NCBI GenBank assembly: GCA_002633005.1
Contig: NMRA01000223.1
Location: 24,491 to 88,490 of the forward strand
DNA from: Phoronis australis
Lineage: Eukaryota; Animalia; Phoronida
Direction: 5' to 3'
DNA length: 64,000 nt
The notes under the pieces are model-generated. The model was given only the letters and a program-made list of their open reading frames with translations, was not told where the DNA came from and made no database searches. Both the position numbers and the translations under genes were made by a program. The number at the start of each line of letters is the position of its first letter. Position 1 is the stretch's first letter. Below, piece after piece: positions 1 to 56,759 of the stretch.

Positions 1-317
1 TGCTATTTACAGCGTACTTTTCATTCTTCACTACTGCTAGCCACTTCCTAAGCATTTCGTACTCTCGAGGAAGTCGATAAAATGATATACAAGCTTTCCT
101 CACAGCTGCATAGTTCGGACAAGCGGGAACGATGCACCGCAACATAGCGGCATTCACTCTGCAAATGAACCACTGACGTCGCTGCGTCATTTCTCACCTT
201 CCTCACATGTTTACGCGACACCTCTCGGCAATTTAAGGTCGACCGTATGCGAGGCGATGTGGATATAGACGGATTAAGACGGCAAAAAAGACAAATTCAA
301 TCGGGTGGCATTCTCCT
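1..317 (-). mobile_element. Partial non-autonomous Kolobok-like element with THAP relic (continues beyond window start)
   Basis: Ends in GTGGCATTCTCCT followed by TTAA (318-321); reverse complement matches 50148-50470 and it aligns with 30685-31003. Confidence 0.75.
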
Positions 318-3946: not shown

Positions 3947-5468
3947 AAAAAAAAAACAGTGCAGGTGGTCTGATGTCACTTGCGTGCATCAGACGTGCGC
4001 AGGCCTCTTGGTTGGGCCCATTGCACAAAACACCTGAGCAAAGGCACGAGACCCCAATTATGGCTCCTCGTGAAGAAAGTTTTCAAGTCTGCCAGTCTCC
4101 TTTAGGAAAACGGACAGACGTTTCCATTTGTTGCCATGCACTATATGTTGTAGGCATGTAACAATGCCATCCAGTAGGTTGCTCCTTAGCCTATAAAAAG
4201 CTGGGCAAGACTCTACCAGGTGTTTAGGAGATTCTACGTCAGTACCACACTCGGGACACACAGGGCTCCCCATATGCCCAGTAATGTGTCTGTGTCGGGC
4301 TAGGTTGCAGTGGCCCGTCAAAATTTGAATGACGTGTCTTATACCCAATCTATCTAGACTCAGAAGGCTTTTTGAACCTTTTGGTTCGATCACGTTGGGA
4401 AAATTCTCCTTGGTCTCTCTGCAGGAGTTAAGTGATGCCCACTGGGCTGCTGACTGGGTATGTACCCAGTTGCGTATACTCATCCTGCAACATCCGTAAG
4501 ATACCGGGATAGCAGGTTCAGGCACAAAATGCAGAACGCTTGCTCCTATCTTTGCGAGTCTGTCTGCATTCTCATTGCCATCAATTCCCACATGGGCCCT
4601 GACCCAGCGTATATTGACGGTTCTTTCAATTGCAAGCTTGTTAAGCTCATTAATACAAGCATTAACACAACGAGAGTTGACCCTTAGTTTCTTTAGGGCT
4701 TTTATTGCTGCCTGGCTATCTGAAAAGATGGTAATTGGGCCTATTGCCAAGTTCAGTGTTATATTGTGCCAGTTGAGCAGCTCTATTAATTGCAGTGATC
4801 TCAGTCTGAAACACCGTGGCAAGATTGCCTAACGATACCCAGTTTTCTGCATCTGCAACAGGAAGGCTTGGAAAGTAGACCCCAGCACCTGTCTGGCCAT
4901 TTTCCAGTTTAGAGCCGTCCGTATAACAAACCACCTCATTCTTGTGTTCTGCGGTAGGCCATCCATCACCAATTTCCGCGAAGAAATTGTTTGTATGATT
5001 TAAAGCTGTGACCTGGTCATCACTAGGCATGTTCCATAGTTGCCCAGTCTTGGCCATTAGCTTATTGCAAACATTCCTGAGGCTTCTGTGTGCAACGGAG
5101 TCAGGGATGTTAGTTTTCACCCACTGACCATTATATTTGAGACGAAGTGCAGCACATGCAGCTTCACCCTCAAGGTATATGTTCAGTGGAGGTAGACCGA
5201 TTAGCATTTCTAGGGCTGCAGAAGGCATTCCTGGAAAAGCAGAGGTTATGCACAGACAAGATAGACGTTGCAGCTACCTAAGTTTGTTGATAATTGTAAT
5301 CTGTTTTAATGCCGTTCCCCAAATCGACGAAGCATAGGACATTATAGGTCAGATAACAGCAGTATAAATCCAGAACATATTCTTGGGGGACATTCCCCAA
5401 GTTTTACCCACCGCACGACTGCATCTCACCAATGCAGATTTGGCTTTTGAGATTTTTTCTGTAATATG
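3947..5468 (-). mobile_element. 5'-truncated non-LTR retrotransposon (I-group, Loa/R1-like) with RNase H and C-terminal CCHC; frameshifted
   Basis: YTDGSK...VFQTEITAI and IFSDSQAAIKAL...WVRAHVGIDGNENADRLAK RNase H motifs; CPECG...KHLVESC knuckle; split over ORFs 4716-5228 and 4058-4822; 12-bp TSD CTTAGCATAGAT at 3935-3946 and 5469-5480. Confidence 0.9.
4058..5228 (-). pseudogene. LINE ORF2 C-terminal part (RT thumb remnant, RNase H, zinc knuckle) with a frameshift near 4780
   Basis: Two overlapping ORFs each carry half of the RNase H catalytic motifs. Confidence 0.85.
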
Positions 5469-13152: not shown

Positions 13153-15021
13153 TCATGCAAACAAGTGTAACGTGCGGCGCGACCCTGTTTGCTGCTCATT
13201 CAAAATAGGCTTCTCAAAAGCAATTAAAAGGGACTCTAATACTTTCAAACGCAGCACATCTTGCTCCACGTAGCGAATTGACGTGTTTTCCACAATTTCT
13301 TGACGGGTGATTTTACGTGCGTGGTATTGCAGAAAATGATCTTGAATGGCGCCATTTTGAAGATGCATGGATAACCGACGGGAAAGACTGCAAACCGTTT
13401 GACCAATGTAACATTGTTTGACGTTTGAACGAAGACATTCATTCATAGGGCATACAAATTCATAAACAACACTACACTGTGCAACGGGGCGGACTTTCGC
13501 TTTAGAAATGTTATTTTTCATGACCAAGTTGGAGGACTTCCTATTCCGATAATAAATAATAACATCAAGGTAATCATCAGGCTTACAAACTTTAACGTTG
13601 TCCCTTATGATTTTCTTAATGGCGTGTTCGTCCTGGAGGTAATTATTAGACATGACATTTTTGTAAAATATCTTTTTGGTGACACCAGTCCGACGTGCAG
13701 GGACTTCATAGCTAATTGTGGACATAAATCGCTTAATATGGAAGTCCACGAAAGCATTGGTATACCCATTATTCACCAGTGTTTGTCTTATGCGATCTAC
13801 CTCTTGATTGAACAATAGCCAGTTAGACGACACCGAATACGCCCTCTTTAGGAAGTTGACCACAACGGCGACCTTATACCGCTCAGGGCACTCACTTTTG
13901 GCGTGGAGACAGAAACCTTTATCAGTGGGCTTGTGGTAAACTGATGTAGAAAATTCAGACGGAGAATGGTTCACAAGAACGTCCAAAAACGGAATCTTGT
14001 CATTTACAGGAAGCTCGTGGGTAAACTTCAATACAGAGTGGCGCTCAAGTTCATCACGTACTGATAACAAGTCATCAAAGGCACAATAAACAAAAATATC
14101 ATCTACATAACGTACATAGATAGGAATACCACCAATCACATTGCTAGCCCTCTTTTCCACTTCAGACATATAAAATTCCGAGAAAGTGGGACCCAGAGGA
14201 GAGCCCATGCTCACACCATCTTTTTGCAAAAACAATTTCCCATTTATATGGCGAAATGGTACTTTGGTTGTGCAGATGGTTAACAACTCTCTCAAATGAG
14301 TAGGTGAAATGTCGGGTGGCTTTAAATGTGGGTGACGGTATACATTATCCAAAATGATAGTAATGGTCTCATCCACCGGCACGTTGGTGAACAAAGACTC
14401 AGCGTCAAGCGACATAGGTTGGTAGTGGGGGGATGGCACTTGTGTGCGCAAAATGTCAATAAAATCCTCACGACATTTAATGGAGTAACGGCTCTGAATG
14501 TACGGCTTTATGATTTTATCAAGATGCTTCGCTGTCTTGTACGTGGGCGTCAGGACTTGGGATATTATCGGCCGTAGAGGAACATCTTTTTTGTGTATTT
14601 TAGGGTTACCATAGAGATAACCTTCGGAGTAATCACCTTCGATTTCGGAGAAAATGCGACGACCAGCCTCAGCATTTATAGCCCTAATGTGACGATTCAA
14701 TTCACGTTTAAGGTCAATGAGGGGTGACCGACTAATGCTGGTAAACTTGGAAGGGTCACATATTAATAGACTAAGTTTATCGGAATAGTCATCTTTGTTT
14801 AAAATAACATACTGGGCAGACTTGTCGGCGCGGCGAATAACAATACCACCATTATTCTTGAGGCGTTTAGAAGCATCTAGTAGTCGGCTGGAGAGAGCAC
14901 ATCGATGATTTTTGCTGCGGCACTTAGTGCCTTCCGAGCGAAGCTGTTCTCGTATATTAGGGTTGACACTGAGGAAACCATCACCTTTTAGTCGTAAAAT
15001 ATCATTATACAGATTTTCCAA
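13153..15021 (-). CDS. Penelope-like reverse transcriptase with C-terminal GIY-YIG endonuclease
   Basis: RRADKS, LYGNPKIHK..PLRPIIS, SLDAESLFTNVP, GVSMGSPLGP, YVRYVDDIF; VVYEFVCPMNEC...YIGQT...LSRRLSMH...ESLLI...PILN; 622 aa uninterrupted, annotated start is TTG (true start lost). Confidence 0.95.
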   Translation of the reverse strand: MENLYNDILRLKGDGFLSVNPNIREQLRSEGTKCRSKNHRCALSSRLLDASKRLKNNGGIVIRRADKSAQYVILNKDDYSDKLSLLICDPSKFTSISRSPLIDLKRELNRHIRAINAEAGRRIFSEIEGDYSEGYLYGNPKIHKKDVPLRPIISQVLTPTYKTAKHLDKIIKPYIQSRYSIKCREDFIDILRTQVPSPHYQPMSLDAESLFTNVPVDETITIILDNVYRHPHLKPPDISPTHLRELLTICTTKVPFRHINGKLFLQKDGVSMGSPLGPTFSEFYMSEVEKRASNVIGGIPIYVRYVDDIFVYCAFDDLLSVRDELERHSVLKFTHELPVNDKIPFLDVLVNHSPSEFSTSVYHKPTDKGFCLHAKSECPERYKVAVVVNFLKRAYSVSSNWLLFNQEVDRIRQTLVNNGYTNAFVDFHIKRFMSTISYEVPARRTGVTKKIFYKNVMSNNYLQDEHAIKKIIRDNVKVCKPDDYLDVIIYYRNRKSSNLVMKNNISKAKVRPVAQCSVVYEFVCPMNECLRSNVKQCYIGQTVCSLSRRLSMHLQNGAIQDHFLQYHARKITRQEIVENTSIRYVEQDVLRLKVLESLLIAFEKPILNEQQTGSRRTLHLFA

Positions 15022-29589: not shown

Positions 29590-31003
29590 CAAAAGGTGGT
29601 TTTTACACGTAGTCTGTCCAGCAGTTCACAACACGGGTTACTGGTGTCAGCTTATCGCTTGAATTCATCGTTAAACAACAATAAATTATCAAGCTTCTAT
29701 GTAAAACCCTTAAAAATATACCGAGCTTTTATTTTATTTTGCTGTTACTGATATATTGGTATTTGGACACACCGTAGCCTACAAAGTTCGGCAGGCCAAT
29801 TTTCCAAGGTCCGAAGCCGAGGGAATCTGTTCGGAGATAAATTCGAAGTATTCTTCCTTGAAATACAGGCAGCAGGGCTTAGATCTGTGTTGTTTAGACT
29901 TGTAATTTTTTGAGTTATAAACACACAAAACGTTTTTTATCCCGGCCAGTGAATCGGATCCCGATCAGGCCCGTCGCGGTCGCCGGGACTGACACGAACA
30001 TAAACCAGCTTGAGTTGGAAACTAAGCCTTCAGTCACGAAAAGACTATAAAAGCGAGCCAAAGAAATAATGTGCACTAATTATTCATGTGAACTAGCCAC
30101 GAAACTGAAAATCTACTTACTTGTCGGGGGCCGCGAATTCGGGTTCCCGTTCCACTGACCGTCGGGACAAACGTTGTACAGTTACAATGATTTGAATGGT
30201 GTATTTCTATCTCTTAATAAAGATTCTCCTAACATGTGACTATAGAATATAAAATCGAGTAATTCTTTCACAACAGCTTTCTGTCAGCAAACACTGAATT
30301 AGCATGCACTCACGGGGCCTCGGTGCCCGGTCAATTACCTTTATTGCCAACATCAAAAGCCGGTAACGCAGTGGTTTATTTATTGCTGGCTTCTCAACAT
30401 TTGCACTAACTCATAAATATTCCACACAGAATAATAAACGTCTACATGGCAACTAGCCCGGCGCTCATCCGACAAAGACTTCACGGGTCGGATCGTTAGG
30501 TTTCACAGGCTATCTGTTCGAACCGAAATACACTGATCAAAACATACAGTGTACTAGAGAGGCGCTCTGAACAAGCACTGTCAACGGAAAATATGGGTAG
30601 TTCTTTGGTAAGCTGAAATTCGTCAGAGAAATCACCGTCGACGAAATGCTGGCCAAAGACACGGAGATGTTTCACGGCCTCATACTTGCTATTAACAGCG
30701 TACCTTTCGTCCTTCACTACCACGAACCACTTCCTAAGCATTTCGAGCTCTCGAGGAAGTCTAAAAAACGATATACCCGCTTTCTTCGTAGCTTCATCAA
30801 TCGGACAAGCGGGAATGGTGCACTGCAATATAGCGGCATTCACTCTGCAGACGAACCGCTGTCGTCGCTGTGTCGTTTCTCACCTTCCTCACATGTTAAC
30901 GCGACACCTCTCGGCAAGGTGAGGTCCACGGTATAAGAGGAGATGTGGCTAGAGACCGATTAAGGCGCTAAAAAAGACTACTTAAATCGGGTGGCATTCT
31001 CCT
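29590..31003 (-). mobile_element. Non-autonomous Kolobok-like element with THAP domain relic
   Basis: Reverse complement of 50148-51640; end GTGGCATTCTCCT+TTAA; ORF 30496-30843 CTIPAC...FFRLP...W...RVFGQHF...DF. Confidence 0.8.
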
Positions 31004-45849: not shown

Positions 45850-46674
45850 GCATGAACGATTTCCAAAATGCTAAAATTGTCACTGGTGTGGCAGTACAGG
45901 TTAGATTCATTCGAAAACGTGTATGTAAATAATATTAATTTAATTTTTGGCGAAATTAGAAGTATATTTCAAGTAAAAACAATATTAGTTATTATGGACT
46001 TTTCCCTTCAGCTGAAAATTAAAGATGGAAATGCAAATACATGGACGTATTTATGTGTTTTGATGAATTCTGACCACCGAAGAATACCATAAAAGTGTAA
46101 CAATGTTCAAGTCTAGTGCAATGCGTCAATTGAGAAGTTGCGTCAATTTCTGTATTGGTCAACACCCAAACTCCCTGATGCATTTTCCCGGGTCGTTGAT
46201 GGTTTCTATTATCTTGTTGTTCGGAATACAACTAGTGTCAAATGCGTCAATAAGGACCGAAAGCGGGAGTCAGCTCCACGTGAAACTTGGGTTTACGTTT
46301 GTTTTGACCAGCTCTACACCAAACCATCCTACACGTACGTCTGTGTACAAGCGTAGCACTGGTTCAATAAAAACTTTGTAGTTGCCACATCGACAAAAGG
46401 ATACATTTTTGTACACAATTAGGCGCAACAGGCTTGAAAATTTTACGGAGGATGCACTATGCAAATCTCTATAGGTTTTGCCTGGTTGTGGCTCTGGACT
46501 AGAACTTTGTTTTCTTGTCCAAAACCAAAATTTATTATCATTACACCTCAAAAGGAACATCGCATTGCCACCTTCGATTTCATATCTTTACCCCTTTCAC
46601 TTGCCTGTCCAAATGTGTCAAAAGGCCTTTCAGCCCAAAGCAAAAGACCCCTATCAATTCTTGACACGATACAT

Positions 46675-46838
46675 ATAGATAATTACATGGCGAAGTCGTT
46701 ATCCCCCGTTATCTAGAGCCCGAGTGGATTTTGGAGAATTATCACCCGAGGGGCGTTAGCCCCGAGGGTGATAATTCTCCAAAATCCACGAGGGCTCTAG
46801 ATAAGGGGGATAACGACTGAGAACATGTAATAATCTAT
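46675..46838 (+). repeat. 164-nt imperfect palindrome (hairpin) at the left end of the Crypton
   Basis: Arms pair around GC-GTTA-GC (46753-46760); GA/GA mismatches at 46748-49:46764-65, 46722-23:46790-91, 46692-93:46819-20. Confidence 0.95.
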
Positions 46839-47147
46839 TTATACCACATACTAAACGATGAACATTGCAATGAATCGATCTACCTTTCTCGACTCGTCTC
46901 GGCTATGGAACTACTTTCCATGTCAGAGACAAGGGGTCGGAGGTCATGACCTCTTAAGAGACGCCGAGTCATTTCTTGCTAAAACAATATTTTTACTCAA
47001 AACCAACTAAAATTTAAACAAAATTGAACTAAGGTGAACCTATAAAACAAGTTTTAAACAACTTGACTACCTTACTACGCATTTTATGCTAAGCGTCTAT
47101 CGTCAAAATATCGTCTGCTATAGTACAGTAGGTTACCTGGTTACAAT

Positions 47148-48443
47148 ATGTCTAGGATTCCAGACGACAAGCTACCGACATTTAAATTGGAAATCGACGA
47201 ACTCGAATTTGGAGAAAATGACAGATACCGTGAAAAGTTTAACGCTAGAGACGTTAAGGACTTTGTCGAATCGAAGAAAAATTCAAACACCGTAAGAAAA
47301 ACCAAATACGACGTGGAAACATTCAACACCTGGCTAGCAGCGACAAGACCAGCTGAGAAGAGACACATCCTTGAGCTATCAAAAGAAGAGCTGGATGCTT
47401 ATTTGAGCTGTTTCTTTCTTGAAGTAAAAAAGAGAGACAGATCGGAGTATGAGCCAGACACTCTTTTAAGTTTTCACAGATCTATTGATCGTTTTTTGCG
47501 AGAAAATGATTCCAAGTTTTCGATTTTAAGTGATCAAGCGTTTAGTGGATCAAGAGCAGCGCTGCAAGCAAAGCGAAAAGACCTGAAAGCTCAAGGAAAA
47601 GGCAACAAAAGTCATAAAGCAGAGGAGCTTACTGCCAACGATCAGGAAATTCTATGGGCCAGGGGAGTAATTGGACTGCACAGTCCAACTGCTTTACTCA
47701 ACTTGGTGTGGTTGAATAATACTCTCTTGTTAGGATTTCGTGGAAACGACGAGAATAGAAAACTCCAGTGGGGCGATATCACATTGCACAGTACAACGGA
47801 AGGAGAATACATTGAATTCAATGAAAGGGCAACCAAAACAAGATCAGATGGGTCATTAACCAGACCATTTAAACCGAAGCAATTTGCGTTGGAAGCAAAC
47901 CAACCCCACTGCCCAGTAGCTGCGTATAAGAAATACAAAGCAGTGAGACCAGAGATTATGATGGTCGCAAACAGCCCATTTTATCTTAAACCCAAGCATG
48001 GTAGGCCTTCATCTGATGAGCCTTGGTTCACGGTGCAGCCGGTTGGTGTAAACACTCTAGCCAAAATGGTTCCGCGTATGTGCGAGGCAGCTGGAATAGT
48101 TGGCCGTAAAACAAACCACAGCATCAGAAAGACAACATGTTCCACGTTACTCAAGTCCGGAGTGCCCCCAACCACGGTGATGCAGCTGTCAGGACACAGG
48201 AATATACAGAGCCTGAACAACTATCATACAGCAGACATTACCGAGCAGAGGCGTTTATGCTCTATACTTACTGGTTGCGAAAGTGCATCATCCTCCAGTA
48301 ACATCTCAGTTTCCCGCACCTCCTCTGCCTCATCAGGGTTGTTGTCTGTATTTGGAAACTCAACAATCACCGGTGGCACGTTCAACATCACAATAAATCA
48401 AGACAGAGCTCCGAAGAGAAAACACGAGGAAGATGTCGACTAG
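47148..48443 (+). CDS. Tyrosine recombinase, Crypton/DUF3504 type (related to ZMYM/KCTD1/QRICH1 domain)
   Basis: 431 aa, intronless; YEPDTL, catalytic set GFRG (R), TKT (K), NHSIR (HxxR), SGHRNIQSLNNY (H,Y); C-terminal FGNSTITGGTFNITIN tail. Confidence 0.93.
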   Translation: MSRIPDDKLPTFKLEIDELEFGENDRYREKFNARDVKDFVESKKNSNTVRKTKYDVETFNTWLAATRPAEKRHILELSKEELDAYLSCFFLEVKKRDRSEYEPDTLLSFHRSIDRFLRENDSKFSILSDQAFSGSRAALQAKRKDLKAQGKGNKSHKAEELTANDQEILWARGVIGLHSPTALLNLVWLNNTLLLGFRGNDENRKLQWGDITLHSTTEGEYIEFNERATKTRSDGSLTRPFKPKQFALEANQPHCPVAAYKKYKAVRPEIMMVANSPFYLKPKHGRPSSDEPWFTVQPVGVNTLAKMVPRMCEAAGIVGRKTNHSIRKTTCSTLLKSGVPPTTVMQLSGHRNIQSLNNYHTADITEQRRLCSILTGCESASSSSNISVSRTSSASSGLLSVFGNSTITGGTFNITINQDRAPKRKHEEDVD

Positions 48444-48729
48444 CTGTTGCTAATAATAGCTGCGAAGACAATATTTTGAACTGATATGACCTAGTTCTTG
48501 TTTTACACATTTAGATTCATTTCTATTACATTTCTCAAGTGTCTACACGTATAACTTACGTCGCACGTTATTTATTTGTTTGTTTGAATTTTAATGAATT
48601 AAAAAAGTCGTTTTTCATTGAAATTGTGCGTTTTGTTTTTCACAGCGTATATTTGTGTCAGTGCAATGCGGTTTGTTGTACATGAGATTATTGCGCGTGC
48701 TCATTTAAGTATTCTATTTTCACTCTTGA

Positions 48730-48812
48730 TGACGTCAGGCGCTGCGTAGTGCAGTGGTTAAAGTCAGTGACTAGCAAGCTAATGGTCCCGGGTTCGACTC
48801 CGTCCTCGATTT
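48730..48812 (+). promoter_or_regulatory. tRNA-derived Pol III type-2 promoter preceded by a CRE palindrome
   Basis: TGACGTCA 48730-37; A box TAGTGCAGTGG 48747-57; B box GGTTCGACTCC 48791-801; acceptor and T stems do not pair. Confidence 0.7.
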
Positions 48813-48900
48813 CCCGCCAAATCGTTATCTCACTAGTGAGATAACTATATGGGTTATTACACGGTTGTATCTGCCATTTGACGCTAATGTTGTGGTATAA

Positions 48901-49773
48901 ATATAGATTATTACATGGCGAAGTCGTTATCCCCCGTTATCTAGAGCCCGAGTGGATTTTGGAGAATTATCGCCCGAGGGGCGTTAGCCCCGAGGGTGAT
49001 AATTCTACAAAATCCACGAGGGCTCTAGATAAGGTGGATAACGACTGAGAACATGTAATAATCTATTTATACCACATACTAAACGAGAAACATTGCAATG
49101 AATCGATCTACCTTTCTCGACTCGCCTCGGCTTTGTAACTACTTTCTATGTCAGAGGCCCGGGGTCGGAGGTCGTGACCTTTTAAGAAAAGCCGAGCTAT
49201 TTTTGTCAAATTGTACGTATACTCAAAACCAATTGGAAATTTAAACAAAATAGAAATGAAGTGAATCTCTAAATTAAGGTTAAGCAACTATTATAGCTTA
49301 AAACACGTTTTTTACACGCTAAGCTTCGACCGGGAAATTATCGTCTGCTAAAGTAGGTTACCACTGGTAACTGAATGTAATTCTCAAGTCAAAGATCCTG
49401 ACGACACGATACCTGCATTCAAACTGGAGATCGGTGATTTACAAGTAAGAGGACATGAGAGAAAAAATTCACTTAATTAAGATATCATTTTTATGGAAAT
49501 TATGTGTCTTATTTTTCGGAGCGTATAAGTACAATACAATGCGGTTTGTTGAACGTGCGATTATTGCGCGTGCTCATTTAAGTATTCTATTTTCACACTT
49601 GATGACGTCAGTCGCTGAGTGGTGTAGTGGTTAAAGTCGGCGACCAGCAATATTAGGGTCCCGGGTTCGACCCCGTCCTCGGTTTCCCGCCAAATCGTTA
49701 TCTCACTAGTGAGATAACTTTATGGGTTATTACACTGTTGTATCTGCCATTTGAGGCTAATGTTGTGGTATAA
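48901..49773 (+). mobile_element. Non-autonomous internal-deletion relative of the Crypton, head-to-tail
   Basis: Repeats left end and hairpin (48903-49066), a diverged ORF start (DPDDTIPAFKLEIG vs IPDDKLPTFKLEID), then the right end with A/B boxes and GTTGTGGTATAA. Confidence 0.88.
49603..49685 (+). promoter_or_regulatory. Second copy of CRE + tRNA-derived A/B boxes
   Basis: TGACGTCA 49603-10; TGGTGTAGTGG 49620-30; GGTTCGACCCC 49664-74. Confidence 0.7.
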
Positions 49774-50147: not shown

Positions 50148-51750
50148 AGGAGAATACCACCCGATTTAATTAGTCTTTTTATACCGTTTTAATCGGTCTA
50201 TATCCACATCGCCTCTTATACGGTCGACCCCACCTTGCGGAGAGGTGTCGCGTTAACCTGTGAGGAAGATGAGAAACGACGCAGCGACGTCAGTGGTTCG
50301 TCTTCAGAGTTAATGCCGCAATATTGCGGTGCATCGTTCCCGCTTGTCCGAACTATGAAGCTGCGAAGAACGCGGATAAATCGTTTTTCAGACTTCTTCG
50401 AGAGCCCGAAATGCTTAGGCAGTGGCTTGCTTTAGTGATGAGTGAAAGGTACGCTGATAATAGCAAGTATGAGGCAAACAGTGATTTCTCTGACGAATTC
50501 CGGCTTACCAGAGATCTATCCATTCGTTCCGTTGTCTGTGCATGTTCACGGCGCCTCTCTGGTATTTCTTGATCAGTGTATTACGGTTCGAACTGACAGC
50601 CTGTGAAACCTAATGATCCAACCCATGAAGTCTTCGTCGGGTGAGCTCTTGACTATGTCGGTCCTGGCACCGAACGAGGTGCCACGTATTCTGCGTTCTG
50701 TTTCAAAATAAATTATTCTCTTCCTAACCAATGCTTATATAAAACTGAAATAAAGTCTGTCTCACTAGATACAATTTGTAATATCTTTGCAGTATTCGTG
50801 AGTGCAAATGTTCAGAAGCCAGCAATGAATAAACCACTGCGTTACCGGCTTTTAATGCCGGCAATAAAGGTAATTGACCGGGCACCGAAGCCGTGTGAGC
50901 GCATGCTAATTCAGTGTTTGCTGACCGAAAGATTTTGTGAAACAAATACTCGATATTATATGCTATGGTCAAATATTAGGGAAATCTTTATTTAGGAATA
51001 CAAATACATTATTTAAATCACTGTTAATGTACAACAGTTGCCCTGAAGGTCTGTGGAAGGAGAACCTGAATTCGTGGCTCCGACAAGAAAGTAAATTTTC
51101 AGTTTCGTGGCTAATTAACGTAAATAATTACGTGTACATTATTTCTTGGTTAAATATTATAGTATTTCCGTAACTGTAGGTTTAGCTTCCAAACTCAAGG
51201 TGGTTGTGTTCATGCCACTCCCGGCGGTCGCGACGGGCCTGATCGGGTTCCGAGCCACTGGACAGTCGGGCGGCGACATGCCTTACCGTTATCCGAGCCA
51301 CTGGCCGGAATAACATGCGTTTTACTTTTTTTAACTCAGAAAATCACAAGTATAAACAACACAGATCTAGATTCTCTTGTCCGAATTTACATTCGAACAG
51401 ACCCCAAACTCCAGCTACGGATCTTGGTAATTTGGCCTGCCAAATTTGCAGTACCAATAAATCCGTAGTAGCGAAATAAAACAAAACGTTTTCTTTTTTA
51501 TAAAAACTCGGTGTATTTTTAAGGGTTTTACATCGAAGTTTGGTGATTTATTGTTGTTAAACGATGAATTCAAGCGATAACCTGACACTAGTAACCCGTG
51601 TTGTGAACTGCTGAGCAGACTGCGTTTGAAACCAATGACGCCATTGAATAAGTTCAGCACCTCCGTCTGCCGTCAGGTGTGCCATTATCGAGTAGAACTA
51701 CTCGATCTAAATTGATACAAGATAGGTTCTTATTTGAGTGGCATTCTCCT
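50148..51750 (+). mobile_element. Complete non-autonomous Kolobok-like element with THAP relic
   Basis: TTAA|AGGAGAATACCAC ... GTGGCATTCTCCT|TTAA (AG..CT termini, TTAA TSD); ORF 50324-50572 CIVPAC...FFRL...W. Confidence 0.85.
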
Positions 51751-54080: not shown

Positions 54081-54710
54081 TTTAACTACTATTCTTTCAC
54101 TAAGAGACCTACTTGTTTATGGTCCACAGCGTTCGCGCGAAACCTACTTCTTTTTGTAAAGCTTATTACACGTTTTGTGCCATCGATTCTTAACAAATTT
54201 GTCGTATTTCAAATAGTCTTCAAATGCTCAAAAGACCAAATCCTTTTCGTGTTGGCAATAATGACGGGATTGCTTTGGAAATCGTCTTAAAAAAAGATAA
54301 GGTTTGACAAAGAGGGTATTTGCGAGTTTCTGAGTGATTCACGAAGGCTTCGATTAAATTTCACATCTTACCAGCAGCTTCTGTTCTTTCATCGTCACTC
54401 TTTAAAAAATGTCTTCATTGCACAGTGGAGCAGATGACGAAAACGGAGTCGTAGTGCGCAGCGCCACTGTCGGTCGCCTGGGATATCGCGGGAGAGCCTA
54501 TACTTAGCCATAGTTCCGTTACGAATGCGATGAGTTCCGAATTTGACACTTGAAATTGGATTCGAGCCCCCCCCCCCAACACTAAAGCTGCACACATTCC
54601 AATCTTTTTTCATCCGTATAATTTTAATTACCGGGGTTAATTAATAAACTGAACATTTACTTACGCTCTTACTGTTTTATTTTTTGCGGCAGCCAAGGGG
54701 GGGGGGGGGN

Positions 54711-55033
54711 NNNNNNNNNNNNNNNNNNNNNNNNNNNNNNNNNNNNNNNNNNNNNNNNNNNNNNNNNNNNNNNNNNNNNNNNNNNNNNNNNNNNNNNNNN
54801 NNNNNNNNNNNNNNNNNNNNNNNNNNNNNNNNNNNNNNNNNNNNNNNNNNNNNNNNNNNNNNNNNNNNNNNNNNNNNNNNNNNNNNNNNNNNNNNNNNNN
54901 NNNNNNNNNNNNNNNNNNNNNNNNNNNNNNNNNNNNNNNNNNNNNNNNNNNNNNNNNNNNNNNNNNNNNNNNNNNNNNNNNNNNNNNNNNNNNNNNNNNN
55001 NNNNNNNNNNNNNNNNNNNNNNNNNNNNNNNNN
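54711..55033. other. Assembly gap
   Basis: Run of N flanked by poly-G and poly-C. Confidence 1.
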
Positions 55034-56759
55034 CCCCCCCCCCCTAAATCCGCCTATGAATCGAAAGAACTAAAGTCTGGACTCATGGTCTGTGGGTCAA
55101 ACCTTAGAACTACAAGTAAGTGATAAAAGCTGTCTCATACACTGTACATAGTGCGGGTAAACAACACTTAATGTATGGAACAGACATGCTGTGTGGGGCA
55201 TGGAAATCAGCTATTTTTATTCATAAGATGATACATCAAAACTCTAAATCAGTCTTTTGACTACAAACTAACATAAATCTAAATATATAATATTATGCTG
55301 TTCGCATGCATGGTAATTAGCGTGAATCCAAAGCTGGGGACAGGGAAAGGCGGTTCTGGATACCCAGAGATTTTGTTTGAGGCACATTTGTTAACATCTG
55401 GCTCTCTCAACGGTGTACTCAGTGGAAAGACATACAGTACAGAGAGGCGCTATTTTTTCTGGAAAAGATGTGTGAGAGAATGGGAAGAACTTAATAGAGC
55501 AGTTGTTAGAGGAACATTACATCCCCCATGAAAGATTCTAGTGCTCTTCTCAAAATAGCCCAAGCTTGTAATCGTGGGCATCTCCCATAAAGCCAGGGAA
55601 TTACATTGGGGCTGATGTAGTCTCATTGCGAAAAAAGGATTTTGCAATTTTGCTGGCAACACTGTAACTTTCTTGTTCTTCACAAACTTGAGGTGGCTGT
55701 TTGTACGGAGAATTATGTACCACATCAATGTTCCTATCAACAAATAACCACCACAAAATGAATAATTGGCTTGTTGTTTCCAATTAGACTGCATTTTTGT
55801 AAAGAAATAGTCATGGAAAAATACTTTTGCAACATGGTTTGCATTACAATTGCCGAGCGATTACAATTGTACATACATGTACATACTAGATCATGGGAAC
55901 CATAAAATGGTCAATTCACCAAACACCGAGGAGTTCCTAGAGCTAATGAGGCAACAACTTTCAGTAGTGCAACAAACAGAATACGTTTGAAGTGAACATA
56001 AAACAACTTTTGATTTAGACAAAGTATCATCATGAAATAGGTATTATTTCCTGGTCACAATTTCAAAATTTTGAAACAACGGGCAATATGGAAACACTAG
56101 AGACCAGTCTTTATAAGATGGTTTGTTTAATAGTGTACGATCACTTCCCATCTGGATAAGGAAAAAATTGAGAAACAATTATAAAGGTAAATGGTCTAAT
56201 TCAAAACTTTACCTCCTGGACGGAATGTGAGTTTACATCCCAGGCAGAAAGACACATGAAAAAACAGCCGAACTGCAACAGGGGCTCAAATACCAGAAAT
56301 AAATACTCATTTACAAACAATAATCCGTAATGGCAAATAAAATACGGAAACATGAATTCACATCAATTACATCATTTTTAGGAAAAGAACCAGTACAGTG
56401 GTCCCAAATCATGAAACGAACGCCTAAACGTAATGGCCACGCTGAAAAATCCTGTCAAGCCAAAAAATCAAGTGAATAAAAAAAGAACACGGTACCATTA
56501 CCATGTGGCTTTACCAACTTAATCAACTGGCCCAGGATCATGATCGTAGGCTGGACAAAAATTCAATCAATTAAAATTTAGATTTGTGCTCTTTGCACAA
56601 GTCTACTTCCCTATGTGGCGGTGCTGACATAATAATGCCACCACTAGATTTAGCACATCAGTCGGAATATGTACAGATTCAGCCAGTGTACTGTTTCTTC
56701 CCTTTTACATTGCTACATCTGAAAGTGCAGATTCCCTCTTTCCAATGCACACACCACTT

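What the first reader, a model, noticed from the sequence alone, without database searches (positions are those of the whole stretch)
46673..48900. Crypton-like recombinase element whose left end looks built to fold as a strand-specific ssDNA hairpin
Seen: an intact YR ORF preceded by a 164-nt palindrome. Three of its few internal mismatches are 5'-GA/5'-GA tandems, the cap is GC-GTTA-GC, and all of these are retained in the second copy. Established: tandem sheared G.A pairs and GC-GNNA-GC caps stabilise single-stranded hairpins, and integron attC and CTXphi attP are recombined by tyrosine recombinases as folded ssDNA. Inference: the + strand folds well while the - strand would carry TC/TC bubbles, so the fold, not a duplex binding palindrome, is under selection. 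This suggests a ssDNA or cruciform substrate or replication origin for a eukaryotic YR transposon whose mechanism is essentially unresolved.
Basis: partly seen in the sequence, partly recalled or inferred. Interest (0 to 1): 0.85.

Follow-up and report, generated by a model that had tools for sequence, protein, structure and literature searches.

The report
Crypton transposon with folded-DNA end
This is an animal jumping gene with an intact Cre-like recombinase whose one end is a long DNA hairpin studded with G·A mismatch pairs, a design shared by distantly related elements, which likely means these elements move as one folded DNA strand, a route known from bacteria but untested for this class.

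Summary
46673-48900 is a CryptonA element (intact tyrosine recombinase), joined exactly head-to-tail to a gene-less relative (48901-49773). The 164-nt hairpin has three GA/GA tandems and a GCGTTAGC cap. The design generalises: in 10 representative hairpins, 18 of 22 two-by-two loops are GA/GA and all 10 caps are C-(GNA, GTTA or AAA)-G on the same strand, although several stems are unrelated in sequence. The GA strand follows the element end, not the gene, which is reversed in two relatives. One empty site shows no target duplication. Best model (0.55): the recombinase likely acts on a folded single-strand junction, integron-style. Against: computed strand preference is small (2 kcal/mol), some copies lack or invert the apex, four related families show no such hairpin, and nothing biochemical was tested. 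Nine literature searches found no description. This scan noted the same design before on four other windows (unchecked AI notes).

The parts
46673..48900 (+). Copy 1: autonomous CryptonA element, 2228 bp, ATATAGA...GTGGTATAA
   Evidence: (loose ends before 48901 and behind 48900 in the equivalent junction)
46673..46679 (+). Left terminus: 7-nt spacer before the TTAT-like box; 2 nt longer than its complement in the 3' arm
46675..46838 (+). 164-nt hairpin with GA/GA loops at 46692-93/46819-20, 46722-23/46790-91 and 46748-49/46764-65
46753..46760 (+). GCGTTAGC mini-hairpin cap; the same octamer is reported at phage St-1 and alpha3 complementary-strand origins
   Evidence: sequence; PMC13037366 passages
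46839..46848 (+). Tail TTATACCACA, reverse complement of the element's last 10 nt; with the 3' arm it would splint the joined ends (inferred)
47148..48443 (+). Tyrosine recombinase, 431 aa, DUF3504 / KIAA1958-like, R-K-H-R-H-Y intact, Cre-like predicted fold
48747..48801 (+). tRNA-like A-box/B-box stretch, preceded by TGACGTCA at 48730; only in this family; not called a tRNA by ARAGORN
48824..48845 (.). Perfect 22-bp palindrome near the right end; role unknown
48891..48900 (+). Right terminus TGTGGTATAA; predicted cut follows the final ATAA
48901..49773 (+). Copy 2: 873-bp internally deleted, non-autonomous relative of a very abundant subfamily; both ends intact
48891..49076 (+). Natural head-to-tail junction: right end of copy 1 plus hairpin and tail of copy 2 fold into an extended stem with a 2-nt bulge at the join

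Best explanation
This is a CryptonA transposon with an intact tyrosine recombinase, lying in tandem with a non-autonomous relative, and its end hairpin likely serves as a folded single-strand recombination site. INFERRED: when the GA strand is transiently single (for example at a replication fork), the left end would fold back and the tail would pair with the right end, bringing both ends together on one continuous splint strand. The recombinase would make one strand exchange at ATAA^AT and release a single-stranded circle whose junction is a complete stem with a 2-nt bulge. That folded junction would recombine with a duplex target resembling ATAW^ATAT, and host replication would resolve the product, as for integron attC sites. 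The other strand keeps the donor copy, which would allow copy gain. The GA/GA blocks and cap would bias folding and recognition to the correct strand while interrupting an otherwise unstable perfect palindrome.
For: (1) 18 of 22 2x2 loops in 10 representative hairpins are GA/GA, all in pyrimidine-GA-purine context; leaving out the window and the one hairpin found by a GA motif search, 13 of 17. (2) All 10 caps are C-GCA-G, C-GAA-G, C-AAA-G or C-GTTA-G on the GA strand. GNA and GNNA caps are very stable in DNA, and the one RNA counterpart quoted, r(GCGAAAGC), is much weaker (PMC13037366); CGAG blocks form sheared pairs by NMR (PMC10085684). (3) The window's arm is 0.49-0.61 identical to arms of L002, L060a, L058x, L039x and L081, the level of shuffles (mean about 0.5); 11 of 46 pairs change on both sides in families A/B/C/E. 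(4) The tail matches the far end in the window and families A and B and probably L081 (8 nt, chance about 0.04); L026 is a second natural tandem. (5) In L081 and L002 the hairpin lies 3' of the gene with GA on the antisense strand. (6) Nested insertion L035 against its empty site shows no duplication or loss; right flanks match the element's own 7-nt spacer fully in only 1 of 22 (per position 17, 14, 12, 11, 14, 7, 7 of 22), unlike full-homology Cre-type exchange. (7) attC precedent for folded-strand, single-exchange, replicative insertion (PMC3458562); DIRS-1 precedent for an internal sequence complementary to both ends (PMC7192593).
Against: No biochemical test and no circle detected. Computed advantage of the GA strand is only -0.1 to 4.6 kcal/mol over 10 hairpins, 2.2 here. 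The apex is deleted at 5 independent family-B loci (8 of 19 rows) with no shared diagnostic change, so recurrent slippage and a mobile apex-less lineage cannot be told apart. The apex is inverted (TC on the end-defined strand) in L012 and in L050, L075 and L059. No such hairpin was found in four relatives with at least 600 nt on both sides (L003 group, L008, L017, L020). The L026 tandem lacks the 2 extra nt, and the 7-nt spacer is exact in only 9 of 15 family-A and 8 of 16 family-B rows. The model is closer to Cre (Z 18.8, rmsd 4.0, 302 aligned) than to integron integrase (Z 14.2, rmsd 5.3, 264 aligned). 60 of the 80 loci come from two assemblies that share loci.
Confidence: 0.55

Rival explanations
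1. The element passes through a single-stranded circle, but the hairpin is a second-strand priming or SSB-excluding signal; the recombinase acts only on the duplex circle junction, as in the classical Crypton model.
For: GCGTTAGC is reported at St-1 and alpha3 priming origins, CCGAAGG in ssiA, and mini-hairpins bind SSB poorly (PMC13037366). The apex lies 60-80 nt from the crossover, beyond a core recombinase footprint (inference). The duplex junction has an ATAA-N7-TTAT pattern. Starships form circles (10.64898/2026.09.21.753150). The fold is Cre-like.
Against: Does not explain why the 3' arm plus tail complements exactly the joined ends with a 2-nt offset, nor the lack of spacer homology at right flanks. 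It still needs a way to make the single strand.
Confidence: 0.22
2. All sites work in duplex DNA or in an extruded cruciform; the arms are binding sites, the CGAG motifs are same-strand repeats for an accessory protein, and the mismatches mainly protect against palindrome instability.
For: Small computed strand gap; copies with deleted or inverted apex exist; an intact duplex copy of the junction-like site is always present inside the element (arm plus tail).
Against: A symmetric duplex site would place GA on opposite strands, giving TC, not GA, in the second arm. Any mismatch would break the palindrome, yet 18 of 22 are GA/GA and the caps co-orient. Spacing between CGAG motifs varies between families.
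Confidence: 0.11
3. The element is a Helentron-like rolling-circle element moved in trans by an HUH Rep/helicase, with the recombinase as cargo or resolvase.
For: Read on the minus strand, the layout (short inverted repeat at one end, subterminal copy plus terminal palindrome at the other, no target modification, T-rich targets) resembles Helentron/HINE ends (PMC4067079).
Against: Helentron palindromes there are 5-10 bp and do not include the terminus; here the stem is 50-80 bp. Six gene-linked families carry a recombinase and this end type, and no Rep/helicase ORF is in the 2.2-kb element.
Confidence: 0.06
4. The hairpin works as RNA (5' UTR control, small-RNA source or reverse-transcription signal).
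For: RNA reads carry strand-specific T>C and A>G changes in the arms, an A-to-I editing signature, so the arms pair as RNA. Mouse mir-763 consists of the Crypton relic Eulor5A (PMC3495686; PMC5753468).
Against: Both strands are transcribed and edited at similar depth; the GA strand is antisense to the gene in L081 and L002; the caps are DNA-type, and GUUA and AAA are not GNRA loops; Rfam gave only sub-threshold generic hairpin hits; no reverse transcriptase in the element.
Confidence: 0.06

Closest known systems
CryptonA DNA transposons and their non-autonomous derivatives (Kojima and Jurka 2011, PMC3212892; parts 1-2 of 7 and passages read)
   Same: Single DUF3504-type recombinase, no C-terminal domain hit, abundant non-autonomous derivatives, no terminal inverted repeats or target duplication.
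   Different: That paper found no terminal repeats in animal Cryptons and has 0 occurrences of 'hairpin' or 'palindrom'. Here there is a 164-nt terminal hairpin plus a 10-nt tail complementary to the far end.
Integron attC sites / IntI, and CTX phage (Loot et al. 2012, PMC3458562; passages read)
   Same: Tyrosine recombinase; long imperfect palindrome with strand-asymmetric unpaired bases; site completed only by the neighbouring unit or in a circle; head-to-tail arrays.
   Different: Eukaryotic; enzyme encoded inside the mobile unit; asymmetry comes from GA/GA blocks and mini-hairpin caps instead of single extrahelical bases; single-strand use shown for attC, only inferred here.
DIRS-1 internal complementary region (PMC7192593; passages read)
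   Same: An internal sequence complementary to both outer ends placed side by side, in a tyrosine-recombinase element with single-stranded intermediates.
   Different: No reverse transcriptase or long terminal repeats here; the complementary sequence is the 3' arm and tail of a terminal hairpin.
Helentron / HINE / DINE-1 ends (PMC4067079; passages read)
   Same: Asymmetric short inverted repeats, a terminal palindrome, no target modification, AT-rich targets, occasional reversed gene.
   Different: HUH Rep/helicase there, tyrosine recombinase here; 5-10 bp palindrome there, 50-80 bp GA-studded stem here.
Eulor5/Eulor6 vertebrate relics (PMC5753468, PMC3495686; passages read)
   Same: Crypton-derived; Eulor5A underlies a mis-annotated pre-miRNA hairpin, so a hairpin in Crypton relics was visible indirectly.

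Membership tests
CryptonA | DUF3504-type tyrosine recombinase as sole gene | tested here: met
CryptonA | Catalytic R-H-R-Y intact (element, not a domesticated gene) | tested here: met
   R198, H324, R327, Y359 plus K230, H350
CryptonA | Dispersed multicopy family with non-autonomous derivatives | tested here: met
   over 100 contigs with unrelated flanks at the left end; depth about 1e5 over copy 2, about 200 over the ORF, about 40 in flanks (rough; the tool warns that depth is no copy number)
CryptonA | No terminal inverted repeats or target-site duplication | tested here: met
   one empty site (L035 vs L078) and flank tallies; the 10-nt inverted match is subterminal at one end
CryptonA | Placement in the CryptonA clade against Repbase reference elements | not testable with these tools
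   no Repbase or Dfam sequences available; nearest named proteins are KIAA1958-like
Integron attC-type folded substrate | Imperfect palindrome with conserved strand-asymmetric unpaired bases | tested here: met
Integron attC-type folded substrate | Only one folded strand is bound and cleaved; single exchange resolved by replication | not testable with these tools
   needs biochemistry
Integron attC-type folded substrate | IntI-type integrase with its specific insertion | tested here: inconclusive
   fold search ranks Cre first (Z 18.8) and IntI fourth (Z 14.2); the insertion itself was not examined
DIRS retrotransposon | Reverse transcriptase / RNase H and gag genes | tested here: not met
   only one ORF of 100 aa or more in 46673-48900
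Helentron | Rep/helicase gene; short 3' stem-loop after the subterminal repeat | tested here: not met
   stem is 164 nt and includes the terminus

The most novel reading that the evidence does not exclude
A large branch of animal Cryptons are single-strand 'peel, fold and paste' transposons: a eukaryotic tyrosine recombinase excises and integrates one DNA strand whose ends are aligned by an internal splint and whose identity is written in sheared G·A blocks and mini-hairpin caps, a eukaryotic counterpart of integron attC and CTX phage recombination.
Probability: 0.45. Interest if true: 0.9.

Novelty: new variant of a known kind. Interest (0 to 1): 0.74.

Why it matters
Crypton transposition rests on a model by analogy, and animal Cryptons were described as having no terminal repeats. 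The anatomy found here names a strand, a fold, a predicted cut site (ATAA^AT), a 2-nt bulge and a target pattern, so the mechanism can be tested with oligonucleotides and one 431-aa protein. If the model holds, folded single-strand recombination by tyrosine recombinases extends to eukaryotes. It would also offer a small enzyme that inserts single-stranded DNA at AT-rich sites without duplication, and a way to read hairpin-shaped Crypton relics in vertebrate genomes.

Tried and rejected
No whole genome is held for the window. Viral contigs gave no relative of the protein and no match to a hairpin arm; an apex-type pattern gave one hit, L082, in a phage terminase region with no long hairpin, rejected as chance. 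Prokaryote genomes gave one locus, L081, whose microsatellites and family match suggest animal DNA inside a bacterial bin (inference). ARAGORN found no tRNA. Rfam hits to mir-5881 and mir-36 are below their gathering scores and treated as generic hairpin matches. No RNA holder was listed by index. Low variation at GA positions within the window's family was considered as evidence and set aside: only 3 of 164 hairpin positions vary at 8% or more in run X1, so no variation at 12 GA positions is expected anyway. The binomial value is not used because families share ancestry. Covariation alone was not taken as proof, since arm-to-arm conversion mimics it. Whether apex-deleted family-B copies form a clade could not be settled. 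The 'palindrome' at 54696-55045 is an N gap. A recalled database description of Eulor repeats as 'hairpin-tail' was not confirmed by search. No earlier scan note matched by sequence. Supplements (for example Additional file 1 of PMC3212892), Repbase and Dfam entries, and Goodwin 2003 were not seen and may already show these ends.

Full report
Observation. The window looks like repeat-rich animal DNA; no genome is held for it. The ORF at 47148-48443 encodes 431 aa with DUF3504, Phage_integrase and QRICH1 matches. Its 130 relatives are 32-52% identical among the 120 listed, and the named ones are mostly KIAA1958-like. R198, K230, H324, R327, H350 and Y359 are present and conserved in a 48-sequence alignment. 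An AlphaFold model (mean pLDDT 84.8) matches Cre best (Z 18.8, rmsd 4.0, 302 aligned), then QRICH1, XerA and integron integrase (Z 14.2). The hairpin 46675-46838 folds at -73.0 kcal/mol on the plus strand and -70.8 on the minus strand, with 0 of 200 shuffles as good for either. It has three GA/GA loops and a GTTA cap, kept in copy 2.

Ends. Laying public reads showed a very abundant short subfamily matching copy 2 (depth about 1e5 against about 200 over the ORF and about 40 in flanks; rough only, and run X1 may be the window's own sample). Loose ends put the right end after ...GTGGTATAA (44 contigs leave behind 48900, 38 behind 48901) and the left end at or just before 48901 (26 contigs before 48901, 114 before 48897, where AT-rich host DNA extends the match). 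Copy 1 is therefore 46673-48900 and copy 2 is 48901-49773, joined with no intervening base. The 10 nt after the hairpin are the reverse complement of the last 10 nt of the element. At the natural tandem junction the stem extends across the join and leaves 2 nt bulged.

Relatives. A metagenome scan kept 80 of 150 confirmed loci; 60 of the 80 come from two assemblies that share many loci. A genome scan added L081. A hairpin search with no bonus for GA found long hairpins 300-400 nt upstream of the gene in families A, B and C, and others nearby. Multi-copy comparison fixed the ends of A and B: left end ATATAT..., right ends GTACCTAATAA and GTACATGATAA, each complementary to the tail after its own hairpin. 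L026 is a tandem whose junction completes a perfect stem, without the 2 extra nt. A family-A short copy nested in a family-B copy (L035) compared with the empty site (L078) shows no duplication or loss and a 7-nt spacer. That spacer is exact in 9 of 15 A rows and 8 of 16 B rows, so the first two bases are less certain in B. Of 22 right flanks, 1 matches the element's own spacer fully.

Mismatch census. Ten representatives were aligned arm to arm. Family C, L069a and L055x were left out, C because its apex is decayed or inverted and the others as close kin of included rows. Of 22 two-by-two loops, 18 are GA/GA, 2 are GA/AA and 2 are other. All 18 are pyrimidine-GA-purine. Without the window and L039x (found by a GA motif search) the count is 13 of 17. 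All 10 caps are C-GCA-G (5), C-GAA-G (2), C-AAA-G (2) or C-GTTA-G (1) on the GA strand. The window's arm is related to A and B (0.70, 0.66) but at shuffle level to L002, L060a, L058x, L039x and L081. Among A/B/C/E, 11 of 46 consensus pairs change on both sides. NMR work shows that CGAG blocks form sheared pairs (PMC10085684 passages). A review describes GCGNAGC and GCGNNAGC as extraordinarily stable DNA hairpins, gives r(GCGAAAGC) as much weaker, and places GCGTTAGC at St-1 and alpha3 origins (PMC13037366 passages). The stability of C-AAA-G loops is recalled, not checked.

DNA or RNA. In L081 the gene ends at 4311, the hairpin lies at about 4480-4640 with GA on the minus strand, and the only 8-nt match to its tail lies upstream of the gene (2811; chance about 0.04). 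L002 has the same reversed layout with its far end probably off the contig. So the GA strand follows the element end and not the transcript. RNA reads cover both strands similarly and show strand-specific changes nearly absent from DNA run X1, for example 48942 T>C in 61 of 134 plus-mate against 2 of 121 minus-mate reads, and 49027 A>G in 0 of 61 against 26 of 109 (run X7). This is the signature of A-to-I editing on transcripts of both strands; the RNA runs are from other samples than the DNA run. It shows that the arms pair, not that RNA is the functional form.

Mechanism. Shown: anatomy, conservation, end complementarity, insertion pattern. Inferred: on a single GA strand the arm-arm and tail-right-end pairings would align both ends on one splint; one exchange would release a single-stranded circle with a bulged junction; one exchange with an AT-rich duplex plus replication would insert it. 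The precedents are attC (single folded strand, one exchange, replicative resolution; PMC3458562 passages) and the DIRS-1 internal complementary region (PMC7192593 passages). That attC and Xer sites are cut after an AA or ATAA arm is recalled and comes from no call. I give this model 0.55; a priming-signal role with duplex recombination 0.22; duplex or cruciform 0.11; Helentron-driven 0.06; RNA 0.06.

Against. The computed strand gap is -0.1 to 4.6 kcal/mol. The apex is deleted between CGAGTGC repeats in 8 of 19 family-B rows (5 loci), with no shared diagnostic change. It is inverted in L012 and in three old family-C copies with partly similar flanks. The hairpin was found at an end of six gene-linked families (window, A, B, C, L002, L081) and not in four with at least 600 nt on both sides (L003 group, L008, L017, L020); the rest were too short or fragmentary. 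No circle was detected and no enzyme assay was possible.

What is known. Kojima and Jurka found no terminal repeats in animal Cryptons (PMC3212892, parts 1-2 of 7 and passages). A 2026 CryptonA paper has 0 occurrences of 'palindrom', 'hairpin' or 'single-strand' (PMC13465315 passages). A Starship preprint reports circles and has no occurrence of 'hairpin' (passages). Eulor5/6 are Crypton relics (PMC5753468 passages) and Eulor5A underlies mir-763 (PMC3495686 passage). Helentron ends are similar in outline (PMC4067079 passages). PMC11872487 and PMC7334843 passages were not relevant. Nine searches gave no description of GA-studded Crypton ends; Repbase, Dfam, supplements and subscription papers were not seen. 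Four earlier notes of this scan describe the same design in other genomes; I read them after forming this view, and they are not independent support.

Verdict. A real, conserved and apparently undescribed end structure of a known transposon class, which makes an open mechanism directly testable. New variant of a known kind; interest 0.74.

Noticed in passing
window 48903-49066 (runs X7-X9): Strand-specific T>C and A>G changes in RNA reads, nearly absent in DNA: a likely A-to-I editing hotspot on transcripts of both strands of this abundant repeat.
   Followed up: partly
window 48730-48801 and 49603-49674: TGACGTCA followed by a tRNA-like A-box/B-box pointing at the right end, in both copies and not in families A or B; possibly a captured SINE head that could transcribe across a joined junction.
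   Followed up: partly
window 48889 and 49762: Both tandem copies carry G where about 97-99% of the family has A, a shared rare allele in their right ends although the copies are otherwise 83-94% alike.
   Followed up: no
L081 2811-4640: A frameshifted CryptonA-like element amid microsatellites in a 439-kb contig of a record titled as a Nitrospirales bin; likely animal DNA in the bin.
   Followed up: partly
L074 2610, L078 2746, L081 2921, L055 2790: A GCATGCGC-like motif sits just upstream of the gene whichever way the gene faces; a possible promoter element (NRF1-like, label recalled).
   Followed up: partly
L027, L058, L059, L062, L063 left flanks: Several Crypton copies sit at the same spot at the end of another repeat, suggesting a preferred target or passive carriage.
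   Followed up: no
window 13153-14415 (-): 420-aa ORF with reverse-transcriptase and weak GIY-YIG matches, Penelope-like retroelement.
   Followed up: partly
window 1-300, about 29600-30990 and about 50180-51630: Three diverged copies (83-89%) of another dispersed repeat, one inverted, 400 nt right of copy 2.
   Followed up: no
window 54696-55045: Apparent perfect palindrome is an assembly gap of Ns flanked by G and C runs.
   Followed up: yes
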